This document shows, in pieces, positions 35,956-44,292 of a stretch of DNA of 44,292 nt. Position numbers and translations under genes: made by a program. The notes under the pieces were generated by a model, which was not told the DNA's origin, made no database searches, and saw only the letters and a list, made by a program, of their open reading frames with translations. The stretch is taken from the IMG/VR virus record IMGVR_UViG_2660238147_000001. The stretch is one strand, 5' to 3'. This DNA comes from a virus. Taxonomy: Duplodnaviria > Heunggongvirae > Uroviricota > Caudoviricetes. Every line of letters starts with the position of its first letter. The stretch's first letter is position 1.

Positions 35956-38900
35956 ATGGGAAAAGGTGGCGGTAAGGCACACACGCCTCGTGAGGCGAAG
36001 GATAATCTCAAATCCACGCAGATGATGAGTGTGATTGATGCGATTGGTGAGGGACCGATAGAAGGTCCGGTGAAGGGACTGCAGAGTATTCTGGTGAACA
36101 AAACCCCGCTGACGGACACGGACGGTAATCCCGTGATACACGGTGTGACTGCGGTCTGGCGTGCCGGGGAGCAGGAGCAGACACCACCGGAAGGCTTTGA
36201 GTCCTCCGGAGCTGAAACCGGACTGGGCGTGGAAGTGACGAAGGCAAAACCGGTGACGCGCACCATTACGTCCGCGAACATTGACCGCCTGCGGGTTACC
36301 TTCGGGGTGCAGTCACTGGTGCAGACCACGTCAAAGGGCGACCGTAATCCTTCCTCTGTCCGGATTCTGATTCAGTTACAGCGTAATGGCCGCTGGGTGA
36401 CGGAAAAGGATGTCACCATTAACGGCAAGACCACCTCGCAGTTCCTGGCCTCGGTGATTCTGGATAATCTGCCTCCCCGGCCCTTTAACATCCGGATGGT
36501 CAGGGAGACGGCGGACAGCACCACGGACCAGCTGCAGAATAAGACGCTGTGGTCGTCATACACCGAAATCATCGATGTGAAACAGTGCTACCCGAACACG
36601 GCCATTGTGGGGCTGCAGGTGGATGCGGAGCAGTTCGGCGGCCAGCAGATGACGGTGAACTACCATATCCGCGGTCGCATCATCCAGGTGCCGTCAAACT
36701 ATGACCCGGAAAAACGCACGTACAGTGGTATCTGGGACGGCAGCCTGAAACCGGCATACAGCAACAACCCGGCCTGGTGTCTGTGGGACATGCTGACTCA
36801 CCCGCGCTACGGCATGGGAAAACGTCTGGGGGCGGCGGATGTGGACAAGTGGGCGCTGTATGCCATCGGGCAGTACTGCGACCAGACGGTCCCGGATGGT
36901 TTCGGGGGGACCGAGCCGCGGATGACCTTTAATGCGTACCTGGCACAACAGCGTAAGGCGTGGGACGTTCTCAGTGATTTCTGCTCTGCGATGCGCTGTA
37001 TGCCGGTATGGAACGGCCAGACGCTGATGTTCGTTCAGGACCGTCCGTCGGATGTGGTGTGGCCGTACACCAACAGCGATGTGGTGGTGGATGATAACGG
37101 CGTGGGTTTCCGCTACAGCTTCAGTGCCCTGAAGGACCGGCACACGGCAGTGGAGGTGAATTACACCGACCCGCAGAACGGCTGGCAGACCTCCACGGAA
37201 CTGGTGGAAGACCCGGAAGCCATACTGCGCTACGGACGCAACCTGCTGAAGATGGACGCGTTCGGCTGTACCAGCCGCGGTCAGGCCCACCGTGCCGGGC
37301 TGTGGGTGATAAAGACCGAACTGCTGGAAACGCAGACGGTGGATTTCACGCTCGGGTCACAGGGGCTGCGTCACACACCCGGTGACATCATTGAAATCTG
37401 TGATAACGACTATGCCGGGACCATGACCGGCGGACGTGTCCTGTCCATCGATGCCGCCAGCCGTACCCTGACGCTGGACCGGGAGGTGACACTGCCGGAG
37501 ACCGGCACGGCCACTGTTAATCTGATTAACGGCAGCGGTAAGCCGGCGAGCGTGGCCATCACCGCACACCCCGCGCCTGACCGGATACAGGTCAGCACCC
37601 TGCCGGATGGTGTGGAGACATACGGTGTGTGGGGACTCTCCCTGCCGTCACTGCGTCGTCGCCTGTTCCGCTGTGTCTCCATTCGGGAAAACACGGACGG
37701 CACGTTCGCCATCACGGCGGTGCAGCACGTACCGGAAAAAGAAGCCATTGTGGATAACGGGGCCAGCTTTGAGCCGCAGTCAGGCAGCCTGAACAGCGTT
37801 ATCCCACCGGCAGTGCAGCACCTGACGGTGGAGGTGAGTGCAGCTGACGGTCAGTATCTGGCACAGGCGAAATGGGACACGCCGCGGGTGGTGAAGGGTG
37901 TGCGCTTCAGTCTGCGTCTGACCAGCGGAAGCGGAGAAGACAGCCGTCTGGTGAGCACCGCCATCACCGCAGACACGGAGCACCGTTTCAGTGGTCTGCC
38001 GCTGGGGGAATACACCCTGACGGTGCGGGCCATTAACAGCTACGGCCAGCAGGGCGAACCTGCGACCACCACCTTCCGGATTAACGCGCCTGCAAAACCC
38101 GCCACCATTGAGCTGACGCCGGGGTATTTTCAGATAACGGCGGTCCCGCGTCTTGCGGTGTATGACCCGACGGTACAGTTTGAATTCTGGTTCTCAGAAA
38201 AACGCATCACGAACACGGCACAGGTGGAAAAATCTGCCCGTTATCTGGGGACCGGCAGTCAGTGGACTGTCCAGGGGAGCCGGATTAAGCCGGGGACGGA
38301 TTTCTGGTTTTACGTGCGAAGCGTCAACCTGGTGGGAAAATCTGCTTTTGTGGAAGCCAGCGGGCAGCCCAGCAATGATGGTGAAGGGTATCTGGAAATT
38401 TTCCGGGGGCTGATAGATGAGACGCTTCTGGGCCAGGCACTGAAAGAGCGCATTGATGCTTCAGCGCTGCGTACGGAGGTCACGCAACTGGAAGAAGACA
38501 TCCGTCAGCGGATGGACACGGATATCGCAGAAGTGACCCGGAAAATCGGGGAGGCGGAAAACAGCCTCACGCAGCTGGTTGCGAAAAAGAATGAGGACCA
38601 GACACTGGCCATCGCGCAGGTGAGCCAGAAAGTGGACCGGGTGAGCAGTGAAATCTCACAGACTGTCAGCCAGGGGCAGTCAGAAAATGCCCGACAGATA
38701 GCACAGGTCCGCCAGTACGTGGATAAAAAAGGGAGTGAAATTACCTCGACCACGGATAAAAAACTGGGTGACCAGGCCGTGACCATACAGCAAATCCAGC
38801 GGGTTCAGTCAGACACGCGCAATGAGCTGAATGCCATGTATATGCTGAAGGTGCAGAAAACAAAAAACGGTATTCCCTATGTGGCCGGGATTGGTGCGGG

Positions 38901-39648
38901 GATTGAGGATGTTGATGGTCAGACGCTGAGCAGTATTCTGCTGCAGGCTGACCGTATCGCGATGATTACCCCGGAGAATGGCAACACCACGCCGCTGTTT
39001 GTGGCGCAGGGGAATCAGCTGTTCATGAACGACGTGTTCCTGAAGCGACTGTTTGCGGTGAGCATCACGTCATCCGGCAATCCTCCTACGTTTTCCCTGA
39101 CGCCGGATGGCAGGCTGGCAGCCCGCAATGCGGATATCAGTGGAGCCATCACGGCGAATACCGGCACGCTCAATAATGTCACCATTAACGAGAACTGTGT
39201 CATCAGAGGGAAACTGTCTGCAAACCAGATTGAAGGCGATCTCGTTAAAACAGTGGGTAAGGCTTTCCCCCGTGACTCCCGTGCACCGGAGAGGTGGCCA
39301 TCAGGGACCATTACCGTCAGGGTTTATGACGATCAGCCGTTTGACCGGCAGATTGTTATTCCGGCGGTGGCTTTCAGCGGTGCCAGACATGAGCGGGAGA
39401 ATAGCGATATTTATTCGTCATGCCGCCTGATAGTGCGGAAAAACGGTGCTGAAATTTATAACCGTACCGCGATGGATAATACGCTGGTTTACAGTGGTGT
39501 TATTGATATGCCTGCTGGTCGCGGCGACATGACGCTGGAGTTTTCTGTATCAGCATGGTGGGTAAATGGCTGGTATCCCACAGCAAGTATCAGCGATTTG
39601 CTGGTTGTTGTGATGAAGAAAGCCACTGCAGGCATCACGATTAGCTGA
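35956..39648 (+). CDS. J: Central tail fibre / host specificity protein J-like
   Basis: 1230-aa ORF; N-terminal two-thirds closely resemble lambda gpJ; ~100 aa longer than lambda J with a divergent C-terminal region. Confidence 0.9.
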
Positions 39649-39667
39649 ATTTTATAACCCCAATACG

Positions 39668-39694
39668 GGCGCCAGAAATGGCGCCTTTTTTATT
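39668..39694 (+). terminator. Rho-independent terminator downstream of J
   Basis: Stem GGCGCC / GGCGCC with AGAAAT loop, followed by TTTTTTATT. Confidence 0.65.
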
Positions 39695-39715: not shown

Positions 39716-40315
39716 ATGCGTAAATTATGTGCTGTTATTCTGTCCGCAGTAGTCTGGCTGGTTGCCGCTGGTACGCCAGCGAGCGCAGCAGAGCATCAGT
39801 CCACACTAAGCGCCGGGTATCTTCAGACCCACACTGATATGCCAGGCAGCGATAATCTGAACGGGATTAACGTGAAATACCGTTATGAGTTTACGGACGC
39901 GCTGGGGCTGATTACGTCCTTCAGTTATGCCAATGCTGAGGATGAGCAAAAAACGCACTACAGCGATACCCGCTGGCATGAAGATTCCGTGCGTAACCGC
40001 TGGTTCAGCGTGATGGCGGGGCCGTCTGTGCGCGTGAATGAATGGTTCAGTGCTTATGCGATGGCGGGTGTGGCTTACAGCCGTGTGTCGACTTTCTCCG
40101 GGGATTATCTCCGCGTAACTGACAACAAGGGGAAAACGCACGATGTGCTGACCGGAAGTGATGACGGTCGCCACAGCAATACCTCTCTGGCGTGGGGAGC
40201 TGGCGTGCAGTTTAACCCGACCGAATCCGTGGCCATTGATATTGCTTATGAAGGCTCCGGCAGTGGCGACTGGCGAACGGATGCATTTATTGTTGGTATC
40301 GGATACCGTTTCTGA
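39716..40315 (+). CDS. lom: Lom-family outer membrane protein (Ail/Lom/OmpX beta-barrel)
   Basis: 199-aa ORF with signal peptide (MRKLCAVILSAVVWLVAAGTPASA) and C-terminal aromatic residue; GAGAGG Shine-Dalgarno; flanked by terminators, consistent with a moron expressed in the lysogen. Confidence 0.85.
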   Translation: MRKLCAVILSAVVWLVAAGTPASAAEHQSTLSAGYLQTHTDMPGSDNLNGINVKYRYEFTDALGLITSFSYANAEDEQKTHYSDTRWHEDSVRNRWFSVMAGPSVRVNEWFSAYAMAGVAYSRVSTFSGDYLRVTDNKGKTHDVLTGSDDGRHSNTSLAWGAGVQFNPTESVAIDIAYEGSGSGDWRTDAFIVGIGYRF

Positions 40316-40420
40316 CAACAGACGCCGATTTATCTTCTGTAAATATTGTTATGATACGCAGGTTCATCCGCCTTATGGGGTGAACTGCGTTTGAGGAAAC
40401 GTAAAGTTACACTGTCCTGA

Positions 40421-40455
40421 AGCCCGTGGCGTCACTGCTGCGGGCTTTTTTTATT
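40421..40455 (+). terminator. Rho-independent terminator downstream of lom
   Basis: Stem AGCCCG / CGGGCT with a 14-nt loop, followed by TTTTTTTATT. Confidence 0.55.
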
Positions 40456-40466
40456 GGTGGAAAAGT

Positions 40467-42530
40467 ATGACAGTAAAAATTTCTGGCGTGCTTAAAGATG
40501 GCACAGGAAAACCAGTACAGAACTGCACCATTGTGCTGAAGGCCAGACGGACCAGCAGCACGGTGGTGGTGAACACGGTGGCCTCTGAAAATCCGGATGA
40601 AGCCGGGCGTTACAGCATGGATGTTGAGTATGGCCAGTACAGCGTCACCCTGCTGGTTGAAGATTTTCCGCCTTCACATGCCGGGACCATTACCGTCTAT
40701 GAAGGTTCCAGACCAGGTACGCTGAATGATTTTCTCGGCGCCATGACGGAGGATGATGTTCGTCCGGAGGCACTGCGCCGTTTTGAGCTGATGGTGAATG
40801 AAGTGGCACGTCATGCCGGAGCGTCATCACAGAGTGCAGCGGCGGCAAAGAAATCCGAAACGGCAGCAGCCTCATCGAAGAATGCGGCGAAAACCTCAGA
40901 AACGAATGCAGCTAACAGCGCACAGGCGGCAGCGGCCTCGCAGACTGCATCGGCAAACTCCGCGACAGCAGCCAAAAAATCAGAAACCAGCGCGAAAAAT
41001 AGCGAGACAGCCACAAAGGCCAGCGAAAAAAACGCAAAATCCAGCCAGACGGCAGCGAAAACCAGTGAGACGAATGCCAAAGACAGTGAAGCCAACGCAA
41101 AGGTGAGCGAAACAGCGGCGGCGAACTCGGCGAAAGCATCGGCAGCAAGCCAGACGGCAGCAAAAGCAAGTGAAGATGCTGCCAGAGAATACGCAAACCA
41201 GACAGCAGAGCCGTACAGATATGTTTTACAGCCGCTGCCGGATGTGTGGATACCCTTTAATGATTCGCTGGATATGATTACGGGCTATTCTCCGGGTTAT
41301 AAAAAAGTGAAGATTGGTGATAATGTGGTTCAGGTTGCCAGTGATAAACAGGTTAATTTCAGTCGCGCATCAACGGCAACATATATCAACAAATCTGGCG
41401 AACTGAAAACGGCGGAAATTAATGAGCCGCGATTTGAGTGTGATGGCCTGCTTATTGAGGGACAAAGAACGAACTTCTTCCAGAACAGTACAGACCCTTC
41501 GAAGTGGAATAAGTCAACTTCACTGGACGTTACAGAAACAGGCACAGATAGTTTCGGGTTTAATTATGGTCGGTTTGTCGTACAGGATTCGATTGTTGGT
41601 ACAAGTAAAGCGCATACCATTATCGGACTGTATTCGAGTACCGGAGGGGTTGATACTTCAGGGGACGAAAAGCATGTAACTATATCCTGTCGGGTAAAAA
41701 GTGAAGTTGATAATATCGCCGTTCGTATTTTATTTGAACATTATGATGGGGAGGTAAGGACATCAATAGGAGCAGCAAACCTGAACCTTACCACCCGCAT
41801 AATTAGCAAGACAGGTCAGACAAGCCGTGTTACAGCAAGGTCTGTTAAGGATGATGCAACTGGCTGGATATTTTTTGAGGCTACATTAAAAGCAGATACA
41901 ACAGAAAATACGGTTGGTGGTTTTGTCCAGTATTCTCCGGATACAGGGCAGATGGTTACATCAGGGGATTATCTCGATGTAACCACTCCACAGATTGAGG
42001 CTGGTACAGGCGCATCATCTTTTATTGTTACGGGGACGGCACCGGCAACGCGGGCAAGCGATATGGTGACAGTCCCAATCAAGAATAACCTTTATAATCT
42101 TCCTTTTACGGTTCTTTGTGAGGTACATAAGAACTGGTATAAAACGCCAAATGTAGCGCCGCGTGTTTTTGATACCGGCGGTCATCAAACCGGAGCGGGG
42201 ATCGTAATGGGGTTTGGTTCATCAGGTGGGTACGACGGTTTTCCGTATTGCGATATAGGTGGTTCAGACCGACGAATAAATGAAAATGCCGGGCTGGAAA
42301 AAATGCTTATTGGTATGCGGGTAAAGTCCGAACGGTCCACATGTGTAGTCAGTAACGGTAAGTTAAGCAGCGAAACTAAAACCAAATGGGAATATATCCG
42401 GAGTACAGCAACCATTCGCATTGGTGGACAAACTACAGCAGGATTACGCCATTTATTTGGGCATGTGAGGAATTTTCGTCTCTGGCATAAAGAGCTAACA
42501 GATGCGCAGCTTGGGGAGGTTGTGGAGTGA
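40467..42530 (+). CDS. stf: Side tail fibre protein (lambda Stf-like N-terminus, distinct C-terminal receptor-binding region)
   Basis: 687-aa ORF; N-terminus MTVKISGVLKDGTGKPVQNCTIVLKARR resembles lambda Stf; central Ala/Ser/Lys/Thr-rich repeats; C-terminal ~370 aa unlike the lambda Stf C-terminus, ending in a motif reminiscent of lectin/LamG-like jelly-roll domains (FGHVRNFRLWHKELTDAQLGEV). Confidence 0.8.
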   Translation: MTVKISGVLKDGTGKPVQNCTIVLKARRTSSTVVVNTVASENPDEAGRYSMDVEYGQYSVTLLVEDFPPSHAGTITVYEGSRPGTLNDFLGAMTEDDVRPEALRRFELMVNEVARHAGASSQSAAAAKKSETAAASSKNAAKTSETNAANSAQAAAASQTASANSATAAKKSETSAKNSETATKASEKNAKSSQTAAKTSETNAKDSEANAKVSETAAANSAKASAASQTAAKASEDAAREYANQTAEPYRYVLQPLPDVWIPFNDSLDMITGYSPGYKKVKIGDNVVQVASDKQVNFSRASTATYINKSGELKTAEINEPRFECDGLLIEGQRTNFFQNSTDPSKWNKSTSLDVTETGTDSFGFNYGRFVVQDSIVGTSKAHTIIGLYSSTGGVDTSGDEKHVTISCRVKSEVDNIAVRILFEHYDGEVRTSIGAANLNLTTRIISKTGQTSRVTARSVKDDATGWIFFEATLKADTTENTVGGFVQYSPDTGQMVTSGDYLDVTTPQIEAGTGASSFIVTGTAPATRASDMVTVPIKNNLYNLPFTVLCEVHKNWYKTPNVAPRVFDTGGHQTGAGIVMGFGSSGGYDGFPYCDIGGSDRRINENAGLEKMLIGMRVKSERSTCVVSNGKLSSETKTKWEYIRSTATIRIGGQTTAGLRHLFGHVRNFRLWHKELTDAQLGEVVE

Positions 42531-42805
42531 GAGATTTCACGTTGCGTTTCAGTGATAAAGCAGATTTCAGGGCATTTCTCAGGAAACTTAACTGGGAAGA
42601 GGACGAAGAGCTGCAGAATGCCGTTCTGGTTGATGAGATTGGTTTTACGTTCAGGGAGACAGATGTTTCTGATGACGGAGAACCAGAATACACGCGAAAC
42701 GAAGGGTACTTTGTTAATATCCGTCTTCTTGACGATGGATTTGAGGATTCCGTGTTCCGTGAGTGGGTGGTTACACCAGAGCGCCCGCTCAGGGAGTGGT
42801 TTTAA
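42527..42805 (+). CDS. Hypothetical protein, possible tail-fibre chaperone (non-Tfa type)
   Basis: 92-aa acidic ORF with GTG start overlapping the stf stop (GTGA); role inferred only from position. Confidence 0.4.
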   Translation: MRDFTLRFSDKADFRAFLRKLNWEEDEELQNAVLVDEIGFTFRETDVSDDGEPEYTRNEGYFVNIRLLDDGFEDSVFREWVVTPERPLREWF

Positions 42806-42814
42806 GGATAGCAG

Positions 42815-43108
42815 ATGGATATCACGTCGATACTTCATGCGCTTTGTGCCGTGGCGGTGCAGGTACTGGCTGGTCTTTTTACCGGAAACTGGGCTTACGG
42901 GGCGATAGCCGGTTGTACGTTCTTCATTGCGCGTGAACACACCCAGGCAGAATATCGCTGGATTGAAATGTTCGGGCATGGCAAGCGGATTAACATGCCG
43001 TGGTGGGGCGGTTTTGATCCACGTGCATGGGATGTGGCAAGCCTGATGGATTTTGCTGTGCCGGTGGTGGCGTGTCTGCTGGTCTGGCTGTTGGTTAATC
43101 GTGGGTGA
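42815..43108 (+). CDS. Hypothetical small membrane protein
   Basis: 97-aa ORF with two to three hydrophobic segments and a Trp-rich segment; no family recognised. Confidence 0.4.
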   Translation: MDITSILHALCAVAVQVLAGLFTGNWAYGAIAGCTFFIAREHTQAEYRWIEMFGHGKRINMPWWGGFDPRAWDVASLMDFAVPVVACLLVWLLVNRG

Positions 43109-43117
43109 AAAAGGTGA

Positions 43118-43246
43118 GCAGTATATGCAACGAAGGAGGAAACATCATTGCTGGCGGCATGGAAGGCATGCAGGGTGTTGCTGAACCGTGTTGATACATC
43201 AACTGCACCTGATATTGAGTGGCCTACGAACCCTGTCAGGGAGTAA
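43118..43246 (+). pseudogene. tfa: Remnant of tail fibre assembly gene (tfa 3' end)
   Basis: Open frame without a start encoding ...[39 protein letters not shown], matching the C-terminus of lambda-type Tfa as I recall; shares a 38-bp identical block with the tfa-like gene at 44026..44292. Confidence 0.55.
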
Positions 43247-43300: not shown

Positions 43301-43966
43301 CTATTTTTTCCCTGAAGCGGAAAACATTACTACAGTACCTTGAACCTTGGTTTTAACATTCTCGAAATGCTCTGAGAGTATATGTGTTAAGCCTTCTTCG
43401 GAATCTTTTGTGTTTGAAAAGATGCCTTTCTGATTGTAAATGCGCATCAGTTTTTGACCGAAGCTATTGTGCACAACGCCGTCACCAAGAATTGTGGCTC
43501 CGTATAGAGTTCCATCGTCAGTTAAGGCCTGCGCCGCATTGCGTATTACACAGCTTTTTGTAGATATATTTCCAGGCAGGCAGTGAAGAAGGTAAAACAT
43601 GGAAATGGAATCAAATTGACCATGTAACGCCGCGGGATAAGGATCAAAAACATCATGGCTAATTTTATGTTTAATTTTTGATTCCCCAGCCCTTGTCGAT
43701 GCCGCGTTCAGGCTAGCTTCGTTCAAATCCATTAAAGATATCAGACTGCTCTCAGGTACGTGAGTAAGGTAAAACCCAGTTCCAACGCCAATATCCAGAT
43801 GGTTGTTACCTAAATGTTCCAGAAAGTGTGGAAGAAGGTGTTCCTTTGTAGGACATCCCCATGCAAGCCGATTTGATACTCCCAAAACCCACCAGTCATA
43901 AAGCTTTAGGGTAAGTGGTGTGTAAATTTTAGCCCCATCATCTGTGTTTTTTTTCATTAGTTTCAC
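43301..43966 (-). CDS. Class I SAM-dependent methyltransferase (YbcY-like)
   Basis: 221-aa minus-strand ORF with motif I LDIGVGTGFY; low-GC gene between two tfa 3' fragments; not obviously a DNA methyltransferase. Confidence 0.65.
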   Translation of the reverse strand: MKLMKKNTDDGAKIYTPLTLKLYDWWVLGVSNRLAWGCPTKEHLLPHFLEHLGNNHLDIGVGTGFYLTHVPESSLISLMDLNEASLNAASTRAGESKIKHKISHDVFDPYPAALHGQFDSISMFYLLHCLPGNISTKSCVIRNAAQALTDDGTLYGATILGDGVVHNSFGQKLMRIYNQKGIFSNTKDSEEGLTHILSEHFENVKTKVQGTVVMFSASGKK

Positions 43967-44025
43967 CGTATTATAGTTTTATTTGTGAATTAAATCAATT
44001 ATGGCGATGAATTACAAGGGGTTAA

Positions 44026-44292
44026 ATGCTGCCGCAGCATAGCGATATTGAAATAGCCTGGTATGCTTCGATACAGCAGGAGCCGAATGGCTGGAAGACC
44101 GTCACCACACAGTTCTACATCCAGGAATTCAGTGAGTATATTGCGCCACTGCAGGATGCTGTAGATCTGGAAATCGCAACGGAGGAAGAAAGATCGTTGC
44201 TGGAGGCATGGAATAAATATCGGGTATTGTTGAATCGTGTTGATACATCAACTGCACCTGATATTGAGTGGCCGACTTCACCTGCAGAGTAA
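44026..44292 (+). CDS. Tail fibre assembly protein C-terminal-domain protein (short Tfa-like)
   Basis: 88-aa ORF ending at the window edge with a stop codon; C-terminal half ([45 protein letters not shown]) matches the conserved Tfa C-terminus; too short for a full Tfa. Confidence 0.55.

What the first reader, a model, noticed from the sequence alone, without database searches (positions are those of the whole stretch)
40467..42805. Side tail fibre with a replaced C-terminal receptor-binding region and a non-Tfa downstream gene
The stf N-terminus and repeat region are lambda-like, but the last ~370 aa differ and end in a motif reminiscent of lectin/LamG-type jelly-roll domains. The canonical tfa chaperone is missing; an unrelated acidic 92-aa gene is translationally coupled to stf instead. 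This suggests a swapped host-range module with its own cognate chaperone.
Basis: partly seen in the sequence, partly recalled or inferred. Interest (0 to 1): 0.5.

Follow-up and report, generated by a model that had tools for sequence, protein, structure and literature searches.

The report
Swapped lectin-type side tail fibre cassette
This lambda-like prophage carries a very common alternative side-tail-fibre cassette: the fibre ends in two lectin-like domains instead of lambda's tip. It is always followed by a small acidic protein of unknown function that probably helps the fibre assemble.

Summary
Stf (40467-42530) is lambda-like for about 250 residues. The last ~437 residues (not ~370) are unrelated to lambda Stf. 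They comprise a domain homologous to the Rhodobacter GTA head-spike fibre, a capsule-binding protein, followed by a Laminin_G_3/ConA-like domain.

Tfa is absent, but its last 33 codons survive as a scar at 43145-43246. This shows directly that a cassette was replaced.

The 92-aa acidic ORF (42527-42805, GTGA overlap with the stf stop) is real. It is under purifying selection and unrelated to Tfa. A homologue lies immediately after every fibre of this type I could test. These include lambdoid, Dhillonvirus, Nonagvirus, T1-like, T5-like and rV5-like phages.

Its fold is a small alpha/beta domain with no informative structural match. Every record calls it hypothetical. A chaperone or assembly role is the best inference, but it is untested. 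In many relatives a short distal fibre gene follows the small ORF, so a docking role is a live rival.

The cassette is common. It is 100% identical in E. coli CFT073 and matches 1904 of 5426 complete E. coli genomes. The instance is ordinary; the partner family is uncharacterised.

The parts
40419..40448 (+). Terminator-like hairpin between lom and stf
   Evidence: 13-bp stem followed by a T-run. This is a consensus match only.
40467..42530 (+). stf, side tail fibre gene (687 aa)
   Evidence: ORF. Matches phrog_1419 'tail protein' (E 0). 98-100% identical proteins are abundant in E. coli.
40467..40859 (+). Stf N-terminal tail-attachment domain (aa 1-131), lambda-like
   Evidence: PF08400 E 1e-67. 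Residues 1-158 are 73% identical to lambda orf401.
40809..41201 (+). Ala/Ser-rich SETNA-type repeat shaft (aa ~115-245), lambda-like
   Evidence: Aligns to the lambda orf401 repeat region. AT skew peaks at 0.66 here. TRF finds no exact DNA tandem repeat.
41217..41351 (+). Conserved neck of the incoming module (aa 251-295; LQPLPDVWIPFNDSLDM...)
   Evidence: Invariant columns across six phage lineages. Absent from lambda Stf.
41352..42074 (+). C1: GTA head-spike-fibre-like, ConA-like jelly-roll domain (aa ~296-536). The variable core is aa 346-505 (41502-41981).
42075..42527 (+). C2: C-terminal Laminin_G_3/ConA-like domain (aa 537-687). Conserved; ends RHLFGHVRNFRLWHKELTDAQL.
   Evidence: Laminin_G_3 is hit in 13 of 13 homologues, best E 9e-7; the window's own hit is E 0.03. 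Mean pairwise identity is 82% against 59% for the C1 core. The AF2 model is poor here.
42513..42519 (+). Shine-Dalgarno-like GGGGAGG for orf92, inside the end of stf
   Evidence: Read directly from the sequence.
42527..42805 (+). orf92: small acidic partner protein (92 aa, GTG start, GTGA overlap with the stf stop)
   Evidence: phrog_1361 E 1e-40 over its full length. The family has 326 clusters, all 'hypothetical'. dN/dS is 0.3-0.4. The AF2 model has pLDDT 88. A homologue follows every fibre of this type tested.
42815..43108 (+). orf97: small membrane protein. A flanking gene of lambdoid prophages, not specific to the fibre allele.
   Evidence: phrog_1443. Hydrophobic segments at aa 1-24 and 71-97. 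88-93% identical next to fibres that are only 40-55% identical. Absent from the virulent relatives examined.
43145..43246 (+). tfa 3' remnant (last 33 codons plus stop): the recombination scar
   Evidence: 82% identical to lambda Tfa residues 162-194, ending at the same stop. An in-frame stop lies upstream.

Best explanation
Recombination replaced the distal two-thirds of a lambda-type stf, and nearly all of tfa, with a different receptor-binding cassette. The retained N-terminal domain and Ala/Ser-rich shaft still anchor the fibre to the lambda-type tail.

The new tip has three parts: a conserved neck, a variable ConA-like domain and a conserved C-terminal LamG-like domain. The variable domain is homologous to the capsule-binding head-spike fibre of the Rhodobacter gene transfer agent. 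Its core most likely binds a surface polysaccharide (O-antigen or capsule) and sets host range.

The overlapping 92-aa acidic gene is a dedicated partner of this tip. It is made in step with Stf by translational coupling. It most likely acts in the cytoplasm as a non-Tfa assembly or folding factor, working on the conserved C-terminal end of the fibre rather than on the variable receptor-binding surface.

Shown: the swap, the domain homologies, the invariant pairing and purifying selection. Inferred: glycan binding, and the assembly or chaperone role.
For: Swap:
- No similarity to lambda orf314 or Tfa.
- A tfa 3' scar at 43145-43246.
- The same block sits in other lambdoid backbones, e.g. PhiR41_1 matches only window 41078-43056.

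Tip domains:
- NF048003 E 1e-18.
- Family profile against Rcc01080, E 7.7e-15.
- Rcc01080 binds capsular polysaccharide (PMC7296036, PMC10218006).
- Laminin_G_3 in 13 of 13 homologues.
- The C1 core is the allelic hot spot.

Partner:
- A homologue at -4, -1 or -8 nt after the fibre in 126 of 128 fetched loci (64 distinct sequence pairs). The two exceptions are a contig end and an ORF-caller artefact.
- The pairing is seen in Jouyvirus, Dhillonvirus, Nonagvirus, Warwickvirus, Tequintavirus and Vequintavirus, and in other Escherichia species.
- 37-62% identity across these lineages.
- dN/dS 0.3-0.4 among alleles that have no distal fibre gene.
- The small-protein type is reshuffled relative to the C1 core. 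It is one-to-one with the last 47 aa of Stf.
- Presence in strictly virulent phages argues against a lysogeny-related moron.
Against: Nothing here shows that orf92 and Stf bind each other. A complex could not be modelled with these tools.

The one-to-one linkage with the Stf tail could simply reflect 140 nt of physical proximity.

In many relatives the next gene is a short fibre with its own intramolecular chaperone and an invariant N-terminal motif. That fits a docking role as well as a chaperone role.

Glycan binding rests on homology to a protein of which only residues 2-10 are resolved. It also rests on an AF2 model with mean pLDDT 56.5. No receptor data exist for this allele.
Confidence: 0.55

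Rival explanations
1. orf92 is a structural adaptor of a branched fibre. It stays on the LamG-like end of the proximal fibre and forms the dock for the N-terminal peptide of a short distal fibre. In this window the distal fibre gene has been lost, so orf92 is a leftover or merely decorates the tip.
For: In JenP2, PhiR46_1, PhiR11_1, tinuso, tunzivis, L6jm, SelmaRatti and AKFV33, the gene right after the small ORF encodes a fibre of 224-582 aa. It carries a Peptidase_S74 intramolecular chaperone domain. It has an invariant N-terminal motif, M-x-T-x-T-x-I-P-x-D-I-x-x-L. The SelmaRatti authors annotated the small ORF as 'tail fiber protein'. Branched fibres are established for the T5-like phage DT57C (PMC4728585). 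The orf92 C-terminal PLREW tail is conserved but has low pLDDT, like a docking peptide.
Against: The window and all close relatives lack any distal fibre gene; orf97 follows at +10 nt. Even so, orf92 stays intact and under purifying selection. The phage 'rolling' record shows no annotated distal fibre gene after the small ORF either. Only gel-band proteomics for AKFV33 were found, and they cannot detect a 10-kDa protein.
Confidence: 0.22
2. orf92 is a transient cap. It binds the lectin-like tip in the producer cell, prevents premature binding to nascent O-antigen or capsule (or aggregation), and is shed on release.
For: A cap role has been proposed for separately encoded chaperones of Alteromonas phage fibres (PMC10579305) and was discussed for glycan-targeting coliphages (PMC11990801). 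orf92 is strongly acidic. It is made in step with Stf.
Against: orf92 type does not track the variable, presumed receptor-binding core. A cap over the binding site would be expected to co-vary with it. There is no structural similarity to intramolecular chaperone domains.
Confidence: 0.1
3. orf92 has nothing to do with the fibre. It is a moron, anti-defence or exclusion gene that hitch-hikes next to the recombination-prone fibre gene.
Confidence: 0.05

Closest known systems
Lambda Stf-Tfa (Ur-lambda side tail fibre and its Caudo_TAP assembly protein)
   Same: Same position after J and lom. Same N-terminal attachment domain (PF08400) and Ala/Ser-rich shaft. Same logic of a fibre gene followed by a small, translationally linked gene.
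   Different: The distal ~437 aa are unrelated to lambda's tip. The downstream gene is unrelated to Tfa in sequence. It also lacks the Caudo_TAP family match. Only a 33-codon tfa scar remains.
RcGTA head spike fibre Rcc01080 (NCBIfam NF048003, 'phage head spike fiber domain')
   Same: Homologous domain: 68.6 bits against a cut-off of 36, and profile E 7.7e-15. It includes the shared FSRASTATY...PRFE...LLIEG and TRAxD motifs. Rcc01080 binds capsular polysaccharide (PMC7296036, PMC10218006).
   Different: Rcc01080 is a single subunit on a capsid vertex and has no LamG-like second domain in the aligned part. Only residues 2-10 are resolved, so there is no experimental structure of the shared domain. 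No orf92-like partner was examined there.
T5-like AKFV33 ltpA (orf137) / orf136 / ltpB (orf135), and the same arrangement in SelmaRatti and L6jm
   Same: orf137 carries the same C-terminal module: 85.7% identical to SelmaRatti's, which is 36-37% identical to the window. orf136 is the small-ORF homologue in the same overlapping position. orf137 was detected in virions at about its full length (PMC3326045).
   Different: Those phages are virulent siphoviruses with a T5-type N-terminal anchor. They add a distal fibre with a Peptidase_S74 domain, which the window lacks.
DT57C LtfA/LtfB branched lateral tail fibres
   Same: The concept of a proximal fibre carrying a second fibre, with O-antigen as receptor (PMC4728585, PMC10713586).
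   Different: Both DT57C fibres end in autocleavable pfam13884 chaperone domains (PMC4728585). The window Stf has no such domain and uses a separate small protein instead.
Alteromonas phage A5/V22 tail fibre plus cognate chaperone module
   Same: A fibre-plus-chaperone cassette shared by horizontal transfer among unrelated phage families (PMC10579305). The cassette here is likewise shared by six coliphage lineages.
   Different: Those chaperones resemble intramolecular chaperone domains. orf92 shows no such similarity, and its function is untested.

Membership tests
Lambda-type side tail fibre (Stf) | N-terminal prophage tail-fibre domain PF08400 that attaches to the lambda-type tail tip | tested here: met
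   E 1.3e-67, 226 bits against a cut-off of 26.6, full profile coverage. 73% identity to lambda orf401 over residues 1-158.
Lambda-type side tail fibre (Stf) | C-terminal receptor-binding region homologous to lambda orf314 (the T4 gp37-like tip) | tested here: not met
   No BLASTP alignment better than E 1.3.
Tfa / Caudo_TAP tail fibre assembly proteins (PF02413) | Sequence membership of the gene downstream of the fibre | tested here: not met
   orf92 has no Pfam hit, no BLAST alignment to lambda Tfa and an hhalign probability of 0.1%. Only the scar at 43145-43246 and the ORF at 44026 carry Caudo_TAP sequence.
Tfa / Caudo_TAP tail fibre assembly proteins (PF02413) | Required for folding or trimerisation of the fibre tip | not testable with these tools
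   This needs co-expression experiments or modelling of the complex. The tools here predict single chains only.
NCBIfam NF048003 phage head spike fibre domain (RcGTA Rcc01080-like) | Profile match above the curated cut-off | tested here: met
   68.6 bits against a cut-off of 36, Stf residues 329-530 covering profile positions 1-181 of 182. The family profile matches Rcc01080 at E 7.7e-15.
NCBIfam NF048003 phage head spike fibre domain (RcGTA Rcc01080-like) | Binds surface polysaccharide | not testable with these tools
   Shown for Rcc01080 (PMC10218006). Only inferred here.
Laminin_G_3 / ConA-like lectin-glucanase superfamily (PF13385) | Profile match of the C-terminal 150 aa | tested here: inconclusive
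   The window's own score is 14.8 bits, E 0.03, below the 27.6 cut-off. All 13 of 13 diverse homologues hit the same family, best E 9.1e-7. The AF2 model is low-confidence in this domain.
Laminin_G_3 / ConA-like lectin-glucanase superfamily (PF13385) | Jelly-roll beta-sandwich fold | tested here: met
Fibres with a C-terminal intramolecular chaperone (Peptidase_S74, PF13884) | S74 domain at the C-terminus of the fibre | tested here: not met
   No PF13884 hit in the window Stf. The domain is present only in the distal fibres of relatives.
phrog_1361 / orf92 family (uncharacterised) | Full-length profile match, and position overlapping the stop of a fibre with this tip | tested here: met
   E 1.3e-40 over 1-92 of 92. 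GTGA overlap. Invariant synteny.

The most novel reading that the evidence does not exclude
The orf92 family (phrog_1361 and relatives; 326 clusters, all 'hypothetical') is a previously unrecognised class of tail-fibre accessory protein, unrelated to Tfa and to intramolecular chaperones. It would be dedicated to fibres that end in a ConA/LamG-like domain. It would act on the conserved C-terminal ~50 residues of the fibre, either to fold it or to build the dock for a distal fibre. It would travel with that end as an exchangeable unit among at least six lineages of enterobacterial phages. If so, it is a required co-factor for engineering this very common class of E. coli receptor-binding modules.
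Probability: 0.45. Interest if true: 0.55.

Novelty: new variant of a known kind. Interest (0 to 1): 0.4.

Why it matters
Fibres of this type are among the commonest receptor-binding modules of E. coli prophages. They match about a third of complete genomes and are 100% identical in the uropathogen CFT073. They also occur in T1-, T5-, rV5-, Dhillonvirus- and Nonagvirus-like virulent phages used for therapy and biocontrol.

Groups that build chimeric lambda Stf particles graft prophage tips onto the lambda shaft. If the small partner is needed for folding or for docking a distal fibre, leaving it out would silently inactivate such chimeras.

The mosaic map found here gives testable rules for swapping host range. 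The core (aa 346-505) is variable. The LamG-like end is conserved and locked to the partner gene.

The instance in this window is itself ordinary. The value lies in flagging an uncharacterised, tightly conserved partner family.

Tried and rejected
- Tandem Repeats Finder on stf found no DNA repeats. The 'repeat region' is degenerate at the DNA level.
- An exhaustive phmmer search with orf92 gave hits in giant proteins of 477-2744 aa. The six I scanned are mostly PKD/Ig-repeat proteins, with many weak stretches summed. I rejected this as a lead because the AF2 model is alpha/beta, not an Ig sandwich.
- Foldseek against BFVD returned only uncharacterised small phage proteins.
- The orf92 profile against PDB sequences found nothing.
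- The afdb50 library was not available.
- PADLOC gave no hit for orf92 or orf97.
The accepted 10-row alignment gave only pLDDT 56.5, so C2 is not modelled reliably.
- The C2 profile against PDB sequences found nothing.
- A programmed frameshift fusing Stf to orf92 was considered and rejected. There is no slippery site, and the overlap varies among homologues (-8, -4, -1, +17 nt).
- I first considered orf97 part of the cassette. I rejected this because it is 88-93% conserved next to fibres that are only 40-55% identical, and it is absent from the virulent relatives examined.
- Literature searches covered the BASEL papers, the Eligo chimeric-Stf papers, DT57C, Gifsy-1 and Hf4s. None described the small protein.
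- I could not verify that the 'galectin-like' proximal fibre Gp22 of IrisVonRoten (PMC11990801) belongs to this family. It was not among the 40 records listed, out of 215 matching.
Full report
**What is there**

The right end of the window is the tail-tip region of a lambdoid prophage. In order, the features are:
- J, 35956-39648, 1230 aa
- lom, 39716-40315
- stf, 40467-42530, 687 aa
- a 92-aa ORF, 42527-42805
- a 97-aa ORF, 42815-43108
- a class I SAM methyltransferase on the minus strand, 43301-43966
- a truncated tfa-like ORF running off the window from 44026

GC content falls from about 0.55 to 0.44 inside stf, near 41200.

**Checking the observation**

Stf residues 1-131 match PF08400 (E 1e-67). 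Residues 1-158 are 73% identical to lambda orf401, and the Ala/Ser-rich SETNA-type region also aligns. Nothing aligns to lambda orf314, the distal half of Ur-lambda Stf.

The divergent part starts near residue 250.

The 92-aa ORF starts with GTG in a GTGA overlap with the stf stop. A GGGGAGG lies just upstream. The protein is acidic, with pI 4.28. It has no Pfam or NCBIfam family. It has no similarity to lambda Tfa by BLAST or by hhalign (probability 0.1%).

Tfa is indeed missing as a gene, but a scar remains. Window 43145-43246 encodes the last 33 residues and stop of a lambda-type Tfa, 82% identical to residues 162-194, and is preceded by an in-frame stop. This is direct evidence that an incoming block replaced everything from mid-stf to near the end of tfa.

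**What the new tip is**

NCBIfam NF048003 ('phage head spike fiber domain') matches Stf 329-530 at 68.6 bits, against a cut-off of 36. A profile of eight diverse homologues matches the Rhodobacter capsulatus GTA head-spike fibre Rcc01080 at E 7.7e-15, over roughly Stf 295-536.

Two facts about Rcc01080 matter. It is a single-subunit, flexible fibre that binds capsular polysaccharide. Only residues 2-10 are resolved in the PDB entry (PMC7296036, PMC10218006). The link is therefore by sequence homology to a glycan-binding protein, not to a solved fold.

The last ~150 residues hit Pfam Laminin_G_3. The window's own hit is weak (E 0.03). The same family is hit in all 13 of 13 diverse homologues, best E 9e-7.

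The tip is best described as two tandem lectin-like domains. There is no Peptidase_S74 intramolecular chaperone.

The homologous AKFV33 fibre orf137 (784 aa) was detected in virions as a ~96-kDa band (PMC3326045). The C-terminal domain is therefore probably not cleaved off.

**How common it is**

- The Stf-C/orf92/orf97 block is 100% identical in E. coli CFT073.
- It gives megablast matches in 1904 of 5426 complete E. coli genomes, 290 of them over at least 80% of the query.
- The protein database holds more than 2470 relatives of Stf-C. One 90% cluster has 772 members.
- Sequenced phages ev243 (96%) and PhiR49_2 (98.5%) carry the same arrangement.
- By tblastn, 229 phage records carry the tip and 189 carry an orf92 homologue.

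**The partner gene**

This is the most informative result. A small ORF of 85-110 aa overlaps or abuts the fibre stop in each of the following:
- lambdoid Jouyvirus (ev207, 2G7a) and PhiR46_1/PhiR11_1
- Dhillonvirus 'rolling'
- Nonagvirus JenP2
- Warwickvirus tinuso, tunzivis and KMB46
- Tequintavirus L6jm, SelmaRatti and AKFV33
- Vequintavirus 'ime'

The six small ORFs that I aligned, one from each lineage, are homologous to orf92 at 37-62% identity.

Across 128 fetched loci there are 64 distinct fibre/partner sequence pairs. A family member follows the fibre in 126 loci. The two exceptions are a contig end and an artefact of my ORF caller (tinuso is settled).

In species-representative genomes the family appears only in Escherichia species and in a short, probably mis-binned contig. 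Each time, the fibre lies directly upstream.

A profile search finds 326 clusters. Every one that carries a name is called 'hypothetical'. dN/dS among close alleles is 0.3-0.4.

The C-terminal PLREW tail is among the best conserved positions but has the lowest pLDDT. It looks like a docking peptide.

**Mosaic structure**

Comparing the 64 pairs gave three results:
- The core of the first lectin-like domain (aa 346-505) switches between alleles (41-48% vs 96-100% identity) independently of everything else.
- One core allele is found with four different small-protein types.
- The small-protein types are A (92 aa), B (94 aa, 25% identical to A), C (93 aa, 42% identical) and others. They are one-to-one with the last 47 residues of Stf.

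The partner therefore goes with the conserved LamG-like end, not with the presumed receptor-binding surface. This fits a factor that acts on the fibre's C-terminus. Physical proximity (140 nt) could produce the same pattern, so I treat it as suggestive only.

**The third gene**

orf97 has hydrophobic segments at aa 1-24 and 71-97. It is 88-93% identical next to fibres that are only 40-55% identical. It is absent from the virulent relatives examined. It is therefore backbone or accessory cargo of lambdoid prophages rather than part of the fibre unit. Its function is unknown (phrog_1443).

In many relatives the gene after the small ORF is instead a short fibre of 224-582 aa. It has a Peptidase_S74 domain and an invariant N-terminal motif, M-x-T-x-T-x-I-P-x-D-I-x-x-L. 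That implies a branched fibre in which the proximal fibre, possibly through the small protein, carries a distal one.

The window has no such gene. Its orf92 is nevertheless intact and constrained. This is why I rank an assembly or chaperone role above a pure adaptor role.

**Mechanism and confidence**

Shown:
- the cassette replacement
- the two lectin-like domain assignments (C1 solid; C2 at family level)
- translational coupling
- invariant pairing across lineages
- purifying selection

Inferred:
- the variable core binds O-antigen or capsule and sets host range
- orf92 is a non-Tfa assembly factor acting on the conserved C-terminal end

I put about 0.55 on this combined account, 0.22 on the structural adaptor, 0.10 on a transient cap and 0.05 on an unrelated hitch-hiker.

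**Novelty**

The fibre is a new member of a widespread, already catalogued module (phrog_1419, NF048003). Fibres of this type have been noticed before: AKFV33 ltpA for certain, and possibly the 'galectin-like' proximal fibre in the second BASEL paper, which I could not verify.

I found no paper or annotation that assigns any function to the partner family. As a fibre-plus-separate-accessory system with a non-Tfa accessory, it is a new variant of a known kind. As an instance in this window, it is ordinary.

Noticed in passing
window 43145-43246: The last 33 codons and stop of a lambda-type tfa, 82% identical to lambda Tfa 162-194, preceded by an in-frame stop. This is a recombination scar marking the right edge of the replaced cassette.
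   Followed up: yes
window 43301-44292: A class I SAM methyltransferase (221 aa, minus strand, phrog_2132) sits between the tfa scar and a second truncated tfa-like ORF. That ORF (44026 to the window end) carries only the Caudo_TAP C-terminal part. A promoter-like site for the methyltransferase lies at 43998-43970 (-). In phage ev243 this block is followed by an alpha/beta hydrolase and OmpT. It looks like cargo inserted into a former tfa.
   Followed up: partly
window 42815-43108: A 97-aa protein with hydrophobic segments at aa 1-24 and 71-97 (phrog_1443, function unknown). It is 88-100% conserved in lambdoid prophages whatever the fibre allele, and absent from the virulent relatives examined. 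It may be a lysogeny-related membrane protein (exclusion or conversion), but this was not tested.
   Followed up: partly
window 35956-39648: J is 58% identical to lambda J. It carries an extra insert of about 100 aa that looks like coiled coil (aa ~838-960). Its C-terminal ~150 aa are diverged, so the central fibre probably uses a receptor other than LamB.
   Followed up: no
window 39667-39686 and 40419-40448: Two terminator-like hairpins bracket lom. The second (13-bp stem, T-run) lies 19 nt before the stf start. This suggests lom is an insulated unit, with stf expressed by antiterminated late read-through.
   Followed up: no
L131:3620-4660, L052:4054-5100, L055:4096-4770, L053:4060-5790, L135:4087-5835: In relatives, the gene after the small ORF is a short distal fibre. 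It has a Peptidase_S74 chaperone domain and an invariant N-terminal motif, M-x-T-x-T-x-I-P-x-D-I-x-x-L, shared across lambdoid, Nonagvirus, T1-like and T5-like phages. This is probably a universal docking peptide for this proximal fibre.
   Followed up: partly
window 42527-42805 (orf92 residues 83-92): The C-terminal PLREW tail is among the most conserved positions of the family, yet it has the lowest predicted-structure confidence. That is typical of a peptide that becomes ordered only on a partner.
   Followed up: no
proteins P0150, P0162, P0170, P0178, P0186: An exhaustive phmmer search with orf92 gave multi-stretch hits in very long PKD/Ig-repeat proteins. The likely cause is summed weak matches to a '...DDGE...YFVNVRV.D'-like strand pattern. 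The orf92 model is not an Ig fold.
   Followed up: partly
window 42185-42979 (minus strand): A 264-aa antisense ORF spans the stf/orf92/orf97 junctions. No family hit was sought. It is probably a chance ORF.
   Followed up: no
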